Assembly: GCF_006345805.1 (NCBI RefSeq) | Contig: NC_042998.1 | Location: forward strand, 189,906,001-189,970,000 | Length of the DNA stretch: 64,000 nt | Origin: Octopus sinensis | Lineage: Eukaryota | Reading direction: 5' to 3' | In this document: piece after piece, positions 50 to 57,305 of the stretch | Numbering within the stretch: position 1 is the first letter of the stretch | How the letters are laid out: each line of letters begins with the position of its first letter | Position numbers and translations under genes: made by a program | The notes under the pieces: model-generated | Seen by the model: the letters and a program-made list of their open reading frames with translations, nothing else | Databases searched by the model: none | Told to the model about the DNA's origin: nothing

Positions 50-57
<8 letters not shown>

Positions 58-312
58 ATACTTGCCATCTCAATATTGCTAACCACTAAGGGTGGGTGTT
101 ACTGTAGCTTGTAGCCCCAGGAGAACATCGTCTCCAGCTGGCTTTAGGCACACTTTTTGTGCCCTTATGGTATTTGCTGTATTTGCAAATACCGAAAGGG
201 CACAGAAAGTGTGCCTAAAGCCAGCTGGAGACGATGTTCTCCTGGGGCTACAAGCTACAGTAACATCCACCCTTAGTGGTTAGCCATATTGAGATGGCAA
301 GTATACCTCACA
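50..312. mobile_element. Foldback / MITE-like long palindrome beside a (TG)n tract
   Basis: Arm 50-177 is the near-perfect reverse complement of 185-312, with a 7-nt loop TGTATTT. The mirror ORFs 79..270(-) and 92..283(+) are a by-product. Confidence 0.8.
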
Positions 313-2125
313 TTGTCGTGCAGTTACTGTTTATACCTCGTTCAGAGATTTATTATTGCTATATATATGTATGTAAATATATAAAGGAATACAAAACGTT
401 ATACATGAACGCAAAATATCCAGACACCTAAATGATACAATAAAGGGACAACAAAACATACAGACAGATGATACAAAAAAGGGACAAGAAAAAACACGGA
501 CGGGTCATTCGATGTTTTCTTTCCTCGGTCGAGTTCCAGATTATCTTTGCAATTTCGGCTGGTTATACTCGATGTCCCTCCAACAGAGATCCGATTCTAT
601 AATTTTTTGTCGATGTTCCTTCTTGGATGAGTTCCAGCATCCTGTTAACCTTTGCTTCTTCTACAACTGTGTGGAGTTCTTGGTGTTTCCAATCTCGTGG
701 GTTGCGAAATAGCTCAAGCCCAGGCACCGTATCACTGCAGTCGCTACCAGAACCCTCTGCCTCAATCGTTCCTCTGGGCACCTACAACTCTCTGGCAGCA
801 CTTCCCTTCCAACCTAATATCAGCTCCAGCTATTTTTGAGTCACTGGGATCTTTACACTTCATAGTTTCTCTTTTCCTTCATACAAACTCCTCTGAGAAG
901 CCACTAAATAAGAGTCTTAATGTGTTGGTTGACTCATGCAGAGCGATGTGGCTTTGGCTCTTGGGTAAGGCAAGCAACCTCCTCACAAAACTGTTAATCT
1001 TCCTCTTCAAGGTTTCCCCAAAGAACATGCTGACACAAAATCTCGGAGGATGTCATGCTGATGAACCCAAGCTTTGAAGCGATTTGTCGATCTTAAACCA
1101 GTTCTCATAATTTTGCAAATTCTGCGGAGTGAAACTGTCAGGCTGCTGTCAAAGTGTTTCTCCAAGCTCTTGACTAGTTGCTTTGTCAAGATTGACAGTG
1201 CCGGACAAGATCAAGCGAGACTTTTTCAACACTCTCTCTTTGCTTGGAGAAACACTTTGACAGCAGCCTGAAGTTTCCCTCCGCAGAATATAACATCGAT
1301 GAAGTCGCGAATAGCGGTGAAAGGACTTTGACAAACAAACGATTAATTGTTTAATCGGCACATTAAACAAATGGTTGATTAAGTAGTTAATTGGATATTT
1401 AGCCGATTGACTAACAGTAAAGAAGTGATATTGAACCTGTGCGTGTGTTTATTGTTATTGGGCTAATGACCCTCCCAAAACACTACACACACACATACAC
1501 ACATATAAATGTATGTATGTATGTATGTATGTATGTATGTATGTGTGTGTGTATAGATAGAATTATATGCGGTTATGTGTGTTTCTGGTAAATGTGTATA
1601 TAGTAATAAATAAGACGGTGAATACACACAAACACAAATACATATGTCTTTCTGCACGTGCGTGCGTATGTGTGTGTGTATGTATGTATGTATTATGTAT
1701 GTATGCATGTTTGTATTGCATGTGTGTACGTATGTGTGTAGTATGTATATAAATATATACAAACACATACATATTTGTGCGTATGTATGTGTGTGTATCT
1801 GTGCATGCGTTTGTGCCTGTGTACAGCGATATGTGGGTCTTTATACGCATAAATATCAGAAATATTCATATATTTAAATAATGTGACAGTCTGAGATGGA
1901 CGTAGATATGCTGATATATATATATAACGGAATGGACGGACTGAATGAGTTATAAAAATATTTACAAATACCAGCAAGCAGGTATATAAATATATGATTA
2001 GAAATGAAAATTGATGACAAAACTGCAAGCGTGTGTAAATGTGTGCTTTTATGCATGTTGATTTGTTTGTGCGTAAGGACGTGCTTATACGCAGGATTAC
2101 ATATATAAATACATTATATATATAT

Positions 2126-2989: not shown

Positions 2990-3456
2990 TATATATTTTT
3001 GTGGTGTGTGTGGTCATTCAGTTCATGTGATGTTCAATGGTGACTCACTGTTGAAAAGTATCCAAGACTTGTTCGTCGAAAAGGCGCTTTGTTTCAAGAA
3101 GACAATGCAAAGCCACATACCACCAGAAAGATCAGTAACAAGATTGAAGAATTGGACGGTGTGGAAGTTCTGCTGCATCCAGCCTATAGTCCAGACGTTT
3201 CTCCATCTGACTTCTCAATGCAGCTCTTTATGAAAGGTCACCGATTGGAGTCATTCGATGACGTTGAAGAAGCTTGTCAAAAACTTTTCAATTCAAAGCT
3301 GAAGAATTGGTATTTTGACCAAATCCAAAAGCTTGCTGATTGTTGGCAGAATGTCGTGGAAAATGATGTTCTTAAATTTTGGAAAATAGTTGTTGTTGTT
3401 TTTGAATAAATTCGTGCGCAAAAAACACGGCGCATGAACTTTTTCCCTGCCCAGTA
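2990..3456 (+). mobile_element. Mariner transposon 3' fragment (transposase pseudogene plus right TIR)
   Basis: ORF 3089..3409 has QEDNAKPH, LLHPAYSPDVSPSDF and IQKLADCWQNVVENDV, the mariner DD34D C-terminus. A TIR-like end GAACTTTTTCCCTGCCCAG-TA lies at about 3436-3456. Confidence 0.85.
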
Positions 3457-41719: not shown

Positions 41720-44471
41720 GTGATACACTAATTGTACATATTAAGCAACTTGATGTAGTTGTGTGTGCTACATATCGCCCTCCAGATGCCCCAAGCCATG
41801 TGGGCAGTTTGAAGACTGCCTTATAAAAATAGAAGAAATTCTAACCACATTAGAACAACACATAGGTGTGCTTCTTATGGGAGACTTCATCTGCCAATGT
41901 CAGATGGCCCGAGGGGCCTTTCTCTCCCAGGAATGACAACGATGTGAACGAGGACAGGCGAGAGTCCTTCCTGAACCTCATCAACACCCTGTACATGGAG
42001 CAGGTAATACTCCACCAACCAGGGCAGGAACACACTGGATCTCTGCTTCACAAATGACATGGATCTCATCCATAATGTGAAAGTGACACCGACACTACTC
42101 TCGATCACAACATGATAGAGCTGACCATGTACGGGCCAAAAGAGAGCACGGACATGCAGCCTACAAGAAACCCTCAAAATCTTTCCAGCTTGAACTACCA
42201 TAAGGCAAAACTGGAAACAAATTGAGAAAGAGATCCTCAAACAAAACTGGCCTAATGTCTCTCCTCGCCAGACATCGACGTGAAACTTCAACAATTCATG
42301 TCTGTAATGCAAGCCATATGCTACAAATGTGTCCCAGAGAGAAAGGCCACTGTACACAAGAACAAAATCCCCAGAGAGAGGAAAATCTTAATGAGACAGC
42401 GTACGAAATTTTCAAATCGCCTAAACAAACAGATTGAAAGCAGTGAAAGTCCCGCCTAAAAATAAAACTGTTGGAAATCGAAAAAATGTCTGCAACTCTC
42501 CCATGAAAAAAAGAGCAGACAAAGAAGCCTGGGCTATAGAAAACATAAAATCTAACCCCAGAGCTTTCTACAGGTATGCCAAAGAAACAGCTACAGTGCA
42601 CTGTAGAATAGGGCCACTCCTCGAAAAGGATGGCACACTACAGGAAAACCAATGAGGGTAAGTGAATACTGAATGAGCAATTCAAGAGTGTTTTCACTCC
42701 ACCCTTGGGAATCTCCAAATCACCAATCCAACTGACTTTTTACACACTGCAGATATAAAATCAGAGGCGGCGACGATAGATTACATCGATATAAAGGAAG
42801 ACGATGTAACCAAGGCTATAGATGAAATGAAAACAGACTCAGCTACTGGCCCTGATGGATTCCCGGCAATCCTCCTAAAAGCATGTAAGAGAGTCCTAGC
42901 AAGACCACTGCAGTTCCTCTTTCAGAGCTTCCTTGCAGCTGGCAAACTTCCAGGAAACTGAAGGAAGGTAAAATATGCCCCATTCATAAATGAGGTAGCA
43001 GAGCGGAAGCCAAGAACTATAGACCTATCTCTCTGACCTCACACATCAGCAAGGTCATGGAACGAATAGTCAGAAGGAAGCTGATCACCTTCCTTGAAGA
43101 GAATGACTTGCTGCCCGACACCCAACATGGTTTCCGACCAGGGAGAAGCTGTTTAACTCAGCTCCTACAACACTATGACTGGGTGCTGAAACGGTTGCTC
43201 AACCACTCAAATGTGGAAGTGATATATCTCGACTTTGCAAAGGCCTTTGATAAAGTCGATCATGGAATGATATGTCACAAACTGCGTGATCTCAACATAG
43301 TTGGAAAACTGGGAGAATGGCTTCATGACTTTCTGAAGGATAGAAGTCAGGTGGTAGTAGCCAATGGGGCCACCTCCATTAACACACAAATAGTGAGCGG
43401 TGTTCCGCAGGGCACTGTTCTGGGACCACTACTGTTCATAATGGCCCTCTCAGACATGCCTCAGCCACGCAGAGAGCCACGATCACAAGTTATGCAGATG
43501 ATACAAAAAGTTTCACAGGCAATACAGAACCTGAGGACACTAAACACCTGCAATGTGAGCTGGACGAAATATACAAGTGGGCTGAAAAGATAGCATGCAG
43601 TTCAATGCTGGAAAGTTTCAAGCTTTATACTATCAGCATGCAAACTGAATGCAATACCCAATGAATACACTGGACCCGGAGGGATTGCAATCCCAGAGGC
43701 ACAATCAGTGCGTGACCTGGGTATTCACATGAGTGATGACGCGACCTTTCATGTACATGTTGCTAAACTGACAATGAAATGTAGACGGCTGGCTGGATGG
43801 ATTCTTAGAACCTTTAGAACAAGAGAACAAGAAACCATGATGGTCCTCTGGAAGACACTTGTCCTAAGCCACTTTGACTATTGCTCTCAGCTATGGTCAC
43901 CATCCAGTGTCAAGTTGATCACAGAACTTGAGGCGATCCAACGAAGCTACACAGAATGCTATGCAGAATGTAAGCTACTGGGAAAGACTCAAGAGATTAA
44001 AATTATATTCCCGGAGCGTAGGCGGGAAAGATATGCCATAATATACATCTGGAAGATCCTGGAGGGAGTGTCCTGAACTTTGGCATCGAGAGTTACGCAA
44101 ATGCCAGAACTGGGCGCCACTGCGTGGTGCCTAGGACTCCAAACCTGCCATCAAGATGTAGGACAAGATTCTGTGATAGCCTGGGCTTCCGAGCCCACAG
44201 CTCTTCAATATCCTCCCGAAGAACCTGAGAGACCTGCATGGGGTGGATACAGATGTCTTTAAATGAAGCTGGATCTCTTCCTGTCAGGTGTCCCAGATGA
44301 ACCAACTTCACGGCAGGAGGGGCAGATGAGGGCAGCTGCATCGAACTCTCTCATGCACCAAATAGCAGTTGCTAGAAAGCCTCCATGAAGTGAAACCAAG
44401 TAGCAACACCAATGGCGGTGCCCCAGCATGGCCACAGCTCATAAGCTGAAACTAGAATCAATCAATCAATC
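41720..44471 (+). mobile_element. 5'-truncated CR1/L2-group LINE with frameshifted ORF2 (APE endonuclease plus RT)
   Basis: MGDF, TLDLCFTN and SDHNMI (APE). GPDGFP, NYRPISLTSHISKVMERIV, QHGFRPGRSCLTQLL, YLDFAKAFDKVDH, SGVPQGTVLGPLLF, YADD, RDLGI, DYCSQLWSP. (ATCA)n tail. Confidence 0.95.
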
Positions 44472-44510
<39 letters not shown>

Positions 44511-44512
<2 letters not shown>

Positions 44513-45050
44513 AAGCAACGTAGCTAGTTTTAAAATTTCAAGAAGTGATAGAGTAGTTACGTACACTAAACAGTAAGCAAGTTGTCACATCAAAGCGGCA
44601 GCTAAGATCCGCTTCTGCCAGCGATATATTGTAAAAAAAAAAAAAGCTTAGCTATCACTCCATCTGCCTGGGGTTAAACTAGAAGTAACATTTACCTGCC
44701 ACCTTGATGTGGCAACTCGATCTTCTGTTTACTATACATCACTACTCTAGCTCTTCTTTAGATTTATAACTAGTTACTTTGCTTGTTGCAACAAATCAGT
44801 GACCGATGTTTACTATATATCGTTGGCAGGAGCGAATCTTAGATTCCACCCCATTGTGCAGGTACGTGCGGCTGACGAAGAGCCAACTAGCTCGAAACTG
44901 GGCCAGTCCCGCAATCCTGTTAGCTGATGGAGGTTAGTAGGGGTTCGCTTCCCCAGCTAGGGATATAGTATATAAAGGATGCAGAACGCTGCATCAAAAA
45001 CCAGCTGGCAGAGAATCTGCTCGAGGTTAAACTAGTTGTAACACACGCAC
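44511..45050 (+). mobile_element. ORF-less, highly structured hammerhead-containing module between microsatellites (retrozyme-like or Penelope pLTR-like)
   Basis: Bounded by (TA)n tracts. Contains the hammerhead at 44867-44913, long imperfect inverted repeats, three small hairpins and a 29-nt direct repeat at 353-nt spacing. Confidence 0.65.
44867..44913 (+). ncRNA. Type I hammerhead ribozyme motif with intact core
   Basis: TGCGG-CTGACGA-A-GAGC-caacta-GCTC-GAAA-CTG-ggc-CAG-TC-CCGCA: all conserved core residues, stems I, II and III pair, GUC cleavage triplet (cut after 44908). Confidence 0.85.
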
Positions 45051-48202: not shown

Positions 48203-49606
48203 TAACGGGAAGCTTTATGAAAATAAACAAAAGACGAAGGCAGGTGGAAAACAAACGAACAATTGTATTAGTATGGCGCTCAGGAAATATAAATAAAACA
48301 AGTCTTTAACGTTTCGAGCCTACGCTCTTCAACAGAAAGATACACAGAGAGAAAAAAAACACAGAAAGAAGGAGAGAAAAAAATGCGTGCAGTAGCTAAC
48401 GAATCAACATGGCGATCTGATTTCGGCCAGAGGTCAAAGATCAAACATGAGACGCGAGAGCGAAATAAGGGGAGATAATAGGGTTGATAATAGGGTTGAT
48501 AATAGGGTTGAGGGACCAGCTAATAGTGCGTAGGAGGGGTCTGGATGTGTGTATGTATAGGGTTGGTGTATGTATTAGTATGTATAAGGGTGTGTGTGTG
48601 TGTGTATGAGAGAGTATTAGTGCGTAGGATTGGTCTGGACGTGCGTATGAATGGGGTTGGTGTATGTATTAGTATGTATTAGTATGTATTAGTACGTATT
48701 AGTATATATAAGTGTGTGTGTGTGTGTGTATGAGAGAGTATAAGTGCGTATGCGGGGTCTGGACGTGTGTATTTATAGGGTTGGTGTATGTATTAGTATG
48801 TATTAGTATGTATTAGTACGTATTAGTATGTATTAGTTGGTGTATGTATTAGTATGGCACATCATATGTGATGTGATGTGTAAAGTCGTGTGGTGTAGTG
48901 AGAAGAGGGGGAGGGGGAGAAGAGGGGGGGAGAAGGGGAGGGGAAGAAGAGGGGGAGGAAAGGGGGGAAGAGGAGAGGGGGGAAGAGGAGAGGATGGGGG
49001 AGAAAGAAGGGGAGGAGGGGGGATGAAGGAGAAAAGAGGGAGAGGGGGAGAGAGAAGGGGAGAGAGGGAGTGAGGGAGCAGAGGGAAGGGGAAGAGGGAA
49101 GGAGGGAGGGAGAAAGAGGGAAGAAGGGAAGGGGAGTAGGGGTGAAAGGATGAAGGACTGAAGAAGTAGGGGTCGGGGGGAAAGGATAGGTGAGGAGGGG
49201 GGAGAGCGGGGTTAGATGAGGAGGGGGGAGAGTTGAGACCAAATGGCGTATAAGAGCGAAGAGAGAAGATTAATTCCTGTTCACGGCGCAAACGGGAATC
49301 CGGATGGCCTCTGTGTAAGGACAAACCGAACACAGATAGGTGTTGCAAGGAGTGACCGGTGGAGCGGAATGGCGTGAGACCGGTGTGTCGTTCGCAAGGT
49401 GGATGTCACGAAGGTGTTCCGCGAACCGGTCAGCCAAGCGGCGTCCCGTTTGTCCGATGTACAAGGAATTGCAGAGAGAGCAAGAGAGGCAATAGATAAT
49501 ATTGCTGGAGGTGCAGGTGAAGGAGTGGATGATGGGATAGGGTCGATGGTGGGTGCTAGTGAGGCGGGTGGTGTTGGAGAGGTAAGAGCAAGTGCGGCAA
49601 CGTGGG
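48203..49606 (-). mobile_element. 5'-truncated Penelope-like retroelement (Neptune-like): Cys-rich linker, GIY-YIG endonuclease, repeat-rich 3' region and hammerhead-bearing end
   Basis: Minus strand PRCRTC...FTCTSSNIIYC..CSLCNSLYIGQTGRRLADRFAEHLRDI (49400-49606) and RLRREQELIFSLRSYTPFGLN (about 49230-49300). Tandem repeats at 48474-48860. Ends in (TA)n. Confidence 0.88.
48303..48340 (-). ncRNA. Minimal type I hammerhead-like motif (core variant CUGUUGA) in the Penelope terminus
   Basis: TCTTT-CTGTTGA-A-GAGC-gtag-GCTC-GAAA-CG-TT-AAAGA: perfect stems I and II, palindromic ACGT stem III, A6U substitution. Confidence 0.6.
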
Positions 49607-49660: not shown

Positions 49661-50653
49661 TCATCATCATCATCATAGTTTAACGTCCACTTTCCATGCG
49701 GGCATGGGTTGGACGGTTTGACTGAGGACTAGCGAGCCAAATGGCTGCACCAGGCTCCAATCTGTTCTCGCAGAGTTTCTACAGCTAGATGCCCTTTCTA
49801 ACGCCAACCACTCCAAAAGTGTAGTGCGTGCTTTTACGTGCCACCGGCACGAGGGCCAGTCAGACGGTAATGGCAACGGCCACGCTCAAATGGTGTTTTT
49901 ACGTGCCACCACGTAAAGAAAAGTGGTGTTTTTACGTGCACAGGAGCCAGTCCAGCGGCACTGGCAAAGACCTCGCTCGAATGTTGTTTTTCACGTACCA
50001 CCGGCACAAGTGCCAGTAAAGCGACGCTGGTAATGATCACGCTCGAATGGTGCGTTTTGCGTACCACCGGCATGGGATCCAGTCAGCGGCCCTGGCAACG
50101 ATTACGCTCGGATGGTACTCTTTGCGCTCCACTGGCACGGATACCAGTCATGCAGTGCTGTCATCGAATTTGATTTCGATATCACTTCCCTCAATAGGTC
50201 TTCGCAAGCAGAGTTTAGTGTTCAATGAAGGACAGGTACGGATAAATGGGCTGGTTACACCACTGGTTATGATCTCACTTGGCTTGCCGGATCTTCTCAA
50301 GCATAGCATATTTCCAAAGGTCTCGGTCACTAGCCATTGCGTCGGTGAGACCTAATGATCGAAGGTCGTGCTTCACCACCTCATTCCAGGTCTTCCTGGG
50401 TTTACCTCTTTCACAGGTTCCCTCAACTGCTAAGGTGTGACAGTTTTTCACACAGCTATCCTCATCCATTCTCACCACATGACCATACCAGCGTAGTCGT
50501 CTCTCTTGCACACCACATCTAATGCTTCTTAGGTCCAACTTTTCTCTCAAAGTACTAACACGCTGTCGAGTATGCACACTGACATTACACATCCAGCGGA
50601 GCATACTGGCTTCATTCTTTGCGAGTTTATATATGTCCGCAGCAGTCACGGCC
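49661..50653 (-). mobile_element. RTE-clade LINE 3' portion (ORF C-terminus, long 3' UTR, (ATG)n tail)
   Basis: ORF 50275..50649 MLRWMCNVS...RRLRWYGHVVRM...GKPRKTW. Tail GGACGTTAAACTATGATGATG on the minus strand. Confidence 0.9.
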
Positions 50654-56511: not shown

Positions 56512-57305
56512 ATCAGCAATAATAATTTCTGGGTTAGTAAAATAAATAGCAGATGAGCGTTGGTGTCGATGTAACAGACTAAACCCATTACCTAAAAATT
56601 TGTTGGTTTGTGCCAAAAAATTTGAAATTCTCATAACAGCTGATTAAGTTCTGAGCTTAAAATCACCGTTAAGATCGATTCATTTTCTTCTCTCTAGAAG
56701 TCTAGATTCATATAATTCTTATGACATATATATATAATGTTTGATACCACCACAACGTGGTTGTTCTGCATAGAACAATGTTAGTACTGTTTTTTAGAAC
56801 AAGCAACTTTGCTTATATATATATATGCTCGCGCACGTGTGAATATGTGTGTGTATCACTAGGAATACAAGAAAGATTGCAATGTAAGAGGAGACAAGGA
56901 AATATAATACATATGAAATTAAATAAGTAAAGCAATTTGTAAAAAAAAAACCCAGAAAAATTGAAGACTACAATGAGAATGTATATAGTAAATACAACAA
57001 ACAAATGCTTCAAGTTATATCCTATTCAAATAAAAATAAAAATAAGAGCACTCAGAGAGTGTAAACCTCCACCGAGGCAACACCAACGTCCTGAATTTTT
57101 ATTACCCACAAGGGGCCAAACATAGGGGTTGGTATGTATCATGCTCCTCTTTTAATAATAGGTATGAGGCTGGAAGTGTATCCTGAGAACTGGATTTGCA
57201 AACTCCTTACCGTGGCCTATAGATATGCTCTTGTATTTTTCTAACCTCAGAGGGCAACTTTCTAGGTGCAATTCCATGGTCATGAATGACCATGGAATTG
57301 CATTC

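What the first reader, a model, noticed from the sequence alone, without database searches (positions are those of the whole stretch)
44511..45050. Retrozyme-like module: intact hammerhead in an ORF-less structured unit with 353-nt terminal redundancy
Seen: a complete type I hammerhead (44867-44913) and three further hairpins downstream (GGGG/CCCC 44940-44954, GATGCAG/CTGCATC 44978-44995, GCAGA/TCTGC 45008-45020). An imperfect direct repeat ATCTGC..G.GGTTAAACTAG..GTAACA sits at 44662-44690 and 45015-45043 (24/29 identical, 353 nt apart). There is no credible ORF, and (TA)n tracts flank both sides. Known: Penelope-like elements and metazoan non-LTR retrozymes carry type I hammerheads, and retrozymes occur as tandem units of a few hundred nt that yield circular RNA. 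Inference: this may be a slightly-longer-than-unit copy of a ~350-nt self-cleaving or circular RNA mobilised by Penelope-like machinery. I do not recall such a family described in cephalopods.
Basis: partly seen in the sequence, partly recalled or inferred. Interest (0 to 1): 0.8.

Follow-up and report, generated by a model that had tools for sequence, protein, structure and literature searches.

The report
Hammerhead retrozyme family with Penelope footprints
This is a decayed copy of a 360-base non-coding repeat scattered over many places in this animal genome; it carries a hammerhead motif predicted to cut its own RNA and was likely pasted in by Penelope-type retrotransposon enzymes, a kind of element known from other animals, and a much younger sister family in the same genome would let that idea be tested.

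Summary
In detail: a type I hammerhead (44867-44913), the hairpins, and a 24/29 repeat 353 nt apart. The stretch is one old copy (8.7% from its subfamily's commonest letters) of a dispersed family with 646-685 search candidates. Its 353-362-nt unit closes on itself in sequence and is never joined to an ORF in 89 loci. The first 130 nt are an inverted piece of the same unit. Copies carry Penelope-type marks: 3' ends at two sites about 55 nt apart (66 of 89), random 5' ends, head-to-head arms, and (TA)n targets. Subfamilies differ by compensatory pairs (5 against 0.3 expected) and keep a palindromic stem III, pointing to a selected, dimer-acting ribozyme in a long rod. The window copy has a single hammerhead, and its intactness is what neutral decay gives (5 of 79 seen, 6.6 expected). 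Three sampled sister families exist; a young one has 10-13-bp target duplications and a 5.4-unit array. Verdict: a new clan of non-LTR retrozymes. Cleavage, expression and RNA circles are not shown, and the partner element is not identified.

The parts
44472..44511 (.). (TA)n tract at the left outer end; likely target site
   Evidence: TA repeat at the 3' end of 35 of 89 family loci against 5-7% background
44513..44602 (-). Inverted arm: 3' end of the element at the 'long' site (model 121 back to 31)
   Evidence: nhmmer 61 bits; 79% identical to the direct copy
44599..44638 (-). Second inverted fragment (model 188 back to 149)
   Evidence: (up to 98% to other copies)
44633..44663 (+). Inner junction: A run, then a short direct fragment of the unit (CTTAGCTATCACTCC) joined to the start of the direct arm
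   Evidence: sequence compared by eye with family rows
44662..45014 (+). One full 353-nt unit (family about 362 nt), subfamily A
44810..44973 (+). Long rod with the hammerhead at its tip; compensatory pairs 44821/44962, 44852/44929, 44854/44927
44867..44913 (+). Type I hammerhead with an extra base after A9 and a palindromic stem III; predicted cut after 44908
44978..44995 (+). Hairpin with a compensatory pair (44979/44994)
45015..45043 (+). Start of the next unit (the 29-nt redundancy); right-hand 3' end at a minor site
50..366 (.). Head-to-head copy of the young sister family F (no hammerhead in this copy)

Best explanation
It is a decayed genomic copy of a 360-base non-coding repeat family whose RNA likely folded into a long rod, likely cut itself with a hammerhead acting as a pair, and was likely copied back into TA-rich DNA by the reverse transcriptase and nuclease of an autonomous Penelope-like element. 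Shown: the family, its closed unit, absence of a linked ORF, two 3' end sites, random 5' ends, head-to-head arms, TA targets, and compensatory changes in rod and ribozyme. Inferred: (1) a source copy with two or more units is transcribed; (2) neighbouring hammerheads swap their palindromic stem III strands and cut, releasing unit-length RNA that is protected as a monomer; (3) the monomer is closed into a circle (about 55% likely; the alternative is an uncut multimer); (4) a Penelope-like enzyme, probably Neptune-type, nicks both strands of AT-rich DNA and starts reverse transcription inside the RNA at two sites about 165-180 and 215-235 nt past the cut; (5) copying runs for a variable length, often beyond one unit, giving direct or head-to-head partial tandems. 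This family is now inactive; sister family F was active much more recently.
For: Multi-copy family, best other copy 82% identical. Of 89 loci: 46 end at model 55-72, 20 at 108-127, none at 240-265; 5' ends are flat round the unit, with 3 at 245-260; 42 are longer than one unit. 29 of 89 have an inverted arm; 14 of these pair one short with one long end and none has two of the same class. Two internal start sites that define the 'tail', extension of both strands and AT-rich targets are the in vitro behaviour of a Penelope-like enzyme (PMC11167929). An ORF-bearing Penelope-like family here shows the same two-end, TA-target pattern (17 of 19 loci by eye). Subfamily A to B2: 5 compensatory pairs against 0.31 in shuffles (0 of 20,000), on a structure folded from A alone plus the hammerhead stems. 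Pair 244/246 is G-C in 52 rows and A-T in 32, though it cannot form in a single hairpin. Stem III hairpin -0.5 against self-duplex -16.6 kcal/mol. Sister families D, E and F keep the period, a palindromic stem III and, by eye for D and E, the two ends. 12 of 29 F loci have 9-13-bp non-microsatellite target duplications.
Against: No cleavage, expression or circle was shown. No copy of this family reaches two full units (longest 676 nt); only 3 loci have two same-strand hammerhead positions, and neither of the two that were scored is intact. No autonomous element with a homologous terminal repeat was found in 30 GIY-YIG loci or 20 loci of a second family. Target duplications are not above chance in this old family (4 of 89 against 2.4). 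Standard RNAalifold found only 8 pairs, and the number of pairs with a change on both sides was not above shuffles (117 of 500). Compensation rests on few events and is weak for A to B1 and A to C (P about 0.04-0.05). In the anole enzyme system hammerhead cutting was not needed and uncut RNA was the main template. The direct units of the F array share 7-8 changes absent from its inverted arm, which fits DNA-level expansion as well as rolling copying.
Confidence: 0.8

Rival explanations
1. Same family and same Penelope-type mobilisation, but no RNA circle: uncut read-through transcripts of tandem source copies are the templates, arrays grow by DNA-level duplication, and the hammerhead only trims or regulates the RNA. 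(Rival to step 3 only.)
For: Uncut RNA was the main substrate for the anole enzyme. All copies of this family are under two units. The F array's direct units share changes absent from its inverted arm. Local amplification is proposed in 10.64898/2026.07.22.740005.
Against: Selection kept a dimer-type hammerhead and a long rod across subfamilies and families, yet insert ends show no trace of the cut site. A cut product that still propagates is most simply re-closed. Circles are shown for coral, mussel and axolotl retrozymes.
Confidence: 0.4
2. The unit is the pseudo-LTR of an autonomous Penelope-like element, seen only as truncated ends.
For: Same insertion marks; the extra base after A9 and the palindromic stem III are typical of Penelope hammerheads.
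Against: Upstream of the unit lies the unit itself. No flank is shared beyond an unrelated repeat at variable positions. No Penelope ORF fragment is contiguous with the unit in 89 loci, nor shared in D, E or F flanks.
Confidence: 0.07
3. This particular copy has been kept by selection as a working host ribozyme.
For: It is one of only 5 of 79 scored rows with core and stems intact, and the active fold lies 1.4 kcal/mol above the minimum.
Against: 6.6 intact rows are expected from independent decay. The rest of the copy is 8.7% decayed and has lost one arm of a hairpin. Monomer stem III pairing probability is about 0.02.
Confidence: 0.05
4. A SINE-like element moved by an ordinary LINE, with inversions from twin priming.
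For: Inverted 5' parts; an RT-bearing LINE lies just upstream; in the window the two arms abut in unit coordinates (29/31).
Against: No poly(A) or shared LINE tail at the 3' ends; both outer ends are 3' ends at two fixed sites; head-to-tail permutation of the unit.
Confidence: 0.04

Closest known systems
Metazoan non-LTR retrozymes (Cervera and de la Pena 2020, PMC7229834; mussel 350-390-bp family). Seen: passages and sections 14 and 17; supplement unreadable.
   Same: Non-coding unit of about 350-360 nt, type I hammerhead, strong self-pairing, head-to-tail repeats, co-existence with Penelope-like elements.
   Different: This family is dispersed as partial tandems under two units and is decayed; expression and circles are not shown. 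The sections read propose Penelope mobilisation but do not describe insertion-site marks.
Vertebrate non-LTR retrozymes as Penelope derivatives (Li, Clavereau and Pollet 2026, 10.64898/2026.07.22.740005). Seen: parts 1-3 of 5 (abstract to discussion); supplements closed.
   Same: Non-autonomous hammerhead repeat tied to Penelope-like elements; many solo or short copies and rare arrays.
   Different: Their link is co-occurrence and homology to pseudo-LTRs; here no homologous pseudo-LTR was found and the link is the insertion footprint. Their definition needs two intact consecutive units, met only by sister family F.
Endonuclease-bearing Penelope-like elements (Craig et al. 2021, 10.1101/2021.04.23.441226, passages; Frangieh et al. 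2024, PMC11167929, parts 1-2 of 4; Cervera and de la Pena 2014, PMC4209133, part 1 of 4, passages, one supplement)
   Same: Partial tandems, inverted 5'-truncated arm, a tail on one end only, AT-rich or microsatellite targets, hammerhead upstream of the 3' ends.
   Different: No ORF; the whole element is the repeat; the tail is about 55 nt (47 in F) against 30-40 nt; the hammerhead sits at the tip of a rod of about 60 base pairs.

Membership tests
Non-LTR retrozyme | Type I hammerhead in the unit | tested here: met
Non-LTR retrozyme | Short (150-450 bp) non-coding unit without LTRs | tested here: met
   353-362 nt, longest frame 58 codons; primer-binding site and polypurine tract not looked for
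Non-LTR retrozyme | GC content under 45% | tested here: inconclusive
   45.3% in the window unit
Non-LTR retrozyme | Tandem dimers to multimers with a hammerhead in each unit | tested here: inconclusive
   This family: 42 of 89 loci exceed one unit, none reaches two, 3 have two same-strand hammerhead positions. Sister family F: 5.4-unit array with five matching motifs.
Non-LTR retrozyme | Highly self-paired RNA | tested here: met
   z -2.5; 53-65% paired per subfamily with compensatory changes
Non-LTR retrozyme | Self-cleavage | not testable with these tools
   needs in vitro transcription
Non-LTR retrozyme | Expression as circular RNA | not testable with these tools
   only assembled contigs of guessed RNA runs were available
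Penelope-mobilised element | Two 3' end sites (tail on one end only) | tested here: met
   66 of 89 ends in two windows; 14 of 29 inverted loci pair short with long, none pairs like with like
Penelope-mobilised element | Partial tandem and inverted 5'-truncated arm | tested here: met
Penelope-mobilised element | AT-rich or microsatellite target | tested here: met
   35 of 89 against 5.5-6.7% background
Penelope-mobilised element | Target-site duplication | tested here: inconclusive
   this family 4 of 89 against 2.4 shuffled; family F 12 of 29
Derivative of an identified Penelope pseudo-LTR | Sequence homology to the terminal repeat of an ORF-bearing element | tested here: not met
   none in 30 of 147 scored GIY-YIG matches or 20 loci of a second family; the sample is small
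Autonomous Penelope-like element | RT plus GIY-YIG ORF between the repeats | tested here: not met

The most novel reading that the evidence does not exclude
Probability: 0.35. Interest if true: 0.7.

Novelty: new member of a known kind. Interest (0 to 1): 0.45.

Why it matters
Which enzyme moves animal retrozymes, and whether the RNA circle is the template, is proposed but untested in the papers read. Here the copies carry the two-start-site footprint that was tied to a Penelope-like enzyme in vitro. The genome also holds a young sister family with an array of intact hammerhead motifs and long open RT plus GIY-YIG frames of 760-880 codons, which gives matched reagents for a direct test. No description of such a family in cephalopods turned up in six literature searches; the giant squid paper only counts 235 Hammerhead_1 matches. 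The window copy itself is a relic.

Tried and rejected
Expression: no RNA holder was listed for 44513-45043. Four runs guessed to be RNA hold 3-6 contigs each of family relatives under 90% alike, none of this locus and with no joints; this is not used as evidence. Rfam gathering scan of the window: nothing; no hammerhead match for single D, E and F loci at E 0.5. A pattern search returned 0 because the pattern was mistyped; a 21-mer gave 10 dispersed matches and no cluster. Young copies or long arrays of this family: none in five further aimed searches, best identities 80-85%. A-to-I editing footprint: none (A>G 0.041 against T>C 0.039). The repeat beside about half of the first 30 loci varies in place and strand and was rejected as part of the element. 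Default RNAalifold was uninformative on decayed copies. The structure counted has register slips in some helices (helix 16 is off by one), so its counts are conservative. Slower decay of the catalytic core (5.3% against 11.0%) shrank to 6.3% against 9.3% in the less biased first sample and is not relied on. The F folding test was mis-indexed and was repeated (hammerhead stems 4-11% formed in the circular monomer). The taxon was not established: named relatives of a resident Penelope-like protein are bivalves at 45-47%.

Full report
OBSERVATION. Every stated feature is present. The hammerhead has stem I of 5 pairs, core CUGACGA, one extra A before stem II, stem II of 4 pairs, GAAA, stem III ACUGG-G-CCAGU and a GUC site after 44908. 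Rfam gives no match at gathering score in the window but HH9 at E 2.9e-6 in a local scan. The unit 44662-45014 folds better than shuffles (z -2.5). No frame exceeds 58 codons.

FAMILY. The stretch has 646 first-look candidates in the own genome (40 scored; best other copy 82%) and 685 with another copy as query. These are lower bounds, not copy numbers. From five DNA or pattern searches and 14 fetched places I kept 89 distinct loci; the sample favours long, hammerhead-bearing copies. The unit is about 362 nt (model 359) and closes on itself: what precedes position 1 is position 359. Copies lie 7-19% from the column majority with symmetric CpG decay and no A>G strand bias. No young copy and no copy of two full units was found (longest 676 nt; 42 of 89 exceed one unit).

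ANATOMY OF THE WINDOW LOCUS. From left: (TA)n; an inverted arm whose outer end is model 121 (44513-44602); a second inverted fragment (44599-44638); an A run and a short direct fragment; one full unit; 29 nt of the next unit; TA/CA repeats. The two arms are 79% alike, as expected for an old insertion.

INSERTION MARKS. Of 89 direct arms, 46 end at model 55-72 and 20 at 108-127; none ends near the cut site (model 251). 5' ends are spread evenly (5-13 per 30-nt bin; 3 at 245-260). A TA repeat follows the 3' end in 35 of 89 against 5.5% in the window and 6.7% in distal flanks. 29 of 89 have an inverted arm; 14 pair a short with a long end and none pairs like with like (all). Partial tandems, inverted arms, a one-sided tail and microsatellite bias are described for Penelope-like elements (10.1101/2021.04.23.441226, passages). 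The tail was shown to be the distance between two internal reverse-transcription starts, with both strands extended at AT-rich cuts (PMC11167929, parts 1-2 of 4). As an internal control, an ORF-bearing family of this genome ends at two sites about 40 nt apart before (TA)n in 17 of 19 loci (read by eye). Target duplications are not detectable in this old family (4 of 89, shuffled 2.4).

NO LINKED ORF. Flanks of the first 30 loci share only an abundant repeat at variable position and strand. Penelope protein queries hit two of 89 loci, about 800 nt from the element. The family profile does not match 30 GIY-YIG loci (best E 6.2). The genome has 5,029 GIY-YIG candidates, some in frames of 760-880 codons, with RT upstream and a Cys-rich linker. 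I call these Neptune-type from the domain order and linker described; no tree was built.

RNA STRUCTURE UNDER SELECTION. The 92 rows covering the hammerhead fall into subfamilies A (20, including the window), B1 (17), B2 (30), C (13) and 12 unassigned. Folded separately they share 72-91 of about 100 pairs, forming a long rod with the hammerhead at its tip. On the structure from A alone plus the hammerhead stems, the 28 A-to-B2 differences give 5 compensatory pairs, 3 kept, 1 broken and 13 unpaired; shuffles give 0.31 and 8.5 (0 and 2 of 20,000). B1 to B2 is also significant; A to B1 and A to C are marginal and B1 to C shows none. The tool-based count on 36 rows gives a covariation score above all 500 shuffles but no excess of covarying pairs (117 of 500); default RNAalifold fails. 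Stem III stays palindromic in three versions, and columns 244/246, one base apart, are G-C in 52 rows and A-T in 32. They can pair only between two copies. The hairpin is worth -0.5 kcal/mol and the self-duplex -16.6. That fits the double hammerhead described for animal type I motifs (PMC4209133), though it rests on one or two events and palindrome-templated mutation could mimic it.

STATE OF THIS COPY. It differs at 30 of 346 positions from the subfamily A majority and is one of 5 of 79 scored rows (subfamily C left out) with core and stems intact; independent decay predicts 6.6. It has one hammerhead, so it cannot release a unit-length RNA, and monomer stem III is about 2% formed.

SISTER FAMILIES. 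Weak profile hits led to family D (1,429 candidates), E (367) and F (2,789). D and E match the main profile at E to 1e-19 and 1e-16; F is linked mainly through D and E and only weakly to the main family. They have periods of mostly 345-370 nt, different hammerhead sequences with palindromic stem III, and no shared flanks. D and E are as old as the main family. F is young (96-98% over 185 nt) and has a copy at window 50-366. Of 28 F loci, 23 end at unit 175-180 and 5 at 132-135 (the query favoured the former), and 14 of 17 inverted arms end at 127-133. 12 of 29 loci have 9-13-bp non-microsatellite duplications. One locus is a 5.4-unit array, 97-100% identical, with five matching hammerhead motifs. 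Its direct units share 7-8 changes missing from the inverted arm, so later expansion or assembly smoothing cannot be excluded. One F copy is joined through a 5-nt shared stretch to a Penelope-like ORF that lacks its own 3' end (L288): a possible template switch, a single case.

MECHANISM. Shown: family, closed unit, end pattern, targets, covariation. Inferred: transcription of multimers, cutting by paired hammerheads, internal two-site priming by a Penelope-like enzyme in trans. Least certain is the circle (about 55%). For it: the ribozyme and rod were kept by selection while insert ends ignore the cut site. Against it: the anole enzyme used uncut RNA.

COMPARISON AND NOVELTY. It works like a non-LTR retrozyme (PMC7229834, passages and sections 14 and 17; 10.64898/2026.07.22.740005, parts 1-3 of 5) and meets the sequence criteria that could be tested. 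The two-intact-unit criterion is met by F only, and descent from a known pseudo-LTR was tested and not met. Searches on retrozyme, hammerhead, ribozyme, circular RNA or Penelope with octopus or cephalopod found no description. The giant squid paper counts 235 Hammerhead_1 loci (passages). The supplement of PMC7229834, one file of PMC4209133 and the bioRxiv supplements could not be read and may list such a family; Repbase and Dfam were not available. RNA data were uninformative.

VERDICT. A real feature and a new member of a known kind; interest 0.45. The value lies in the clan's insertion footprint and in family F rather than in this copy.

Noticed in passing
window 50-366; G000:C30:13628680-13630975 (L287): Young sister family F: 352-nt unit, 2,789 candidates, 96-98% identical, 9-13-bp target duplications and a 5.4-unit array with five matching hammerhead motifs. 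It is the best candidate for a living retrozyme here.
   Followed up: partly
L288 1500-2150 (G000:C5:54907829 onward); L285 884-1700: A Penelope-like ORF whose own 3' end is replaced by a family F copy at a 5-nt shared stretch; a second locus joins an F-like arm to another ORF fragment. Possible template switches between partner and parasite.
   Followed up: partly
L067 23-448; L057 about 3020-3240 (oriented); L303 about 2180-2950 (oriented); window 56721-56792: Further diverged relatives of the clan; L067 has a hammerhead-like motif with a UGAUAA core and palindromic stem III.
   Followed up: no
L048, L057, L059, L289-L307: ORF-bearing Penelope-like families with variant minimal hammerheads (U3-A8-type cores, ACCGGT stem III, read by eye) and TA-repeat targets; several frames of 760-880 codons are open.
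   Followed up: partly
L175-L204: A separate abundant hammerhead family makes up 23 of the 30 fetched Hammerhead_1 matches, with one 431-nt tandem pair (L180/L181) and inverted pairs; no match to the clan profile.
   Followed up: no
window 42994-44460: Broken LINE (RVT_1, E 7e-23) ending in a (CAAT)n tail directly before the (TA)n tract that the element abuts.
   Followed up: partly
window 49270-49600, minus strand: GIY-YIG fragment of another Penelope-like family (35% over 82 aa to L048, E 5e-12).
   Followed up: partly
window 49942-50150: About three diverged 66-nt tandem units, unexplained.
   Followed up: no
subfamily C, for example L010, L019, L101: Hammerhead variant one base shorter after G8 (CUGAYG then U) with a fully palindromic 10-nt stem III.
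   Followed up: partly
L023 2117 and 2248; L010 2317: Other minimal hammerhead-like motifs, in L023 as a head-to-head pair.
   Followed up: no
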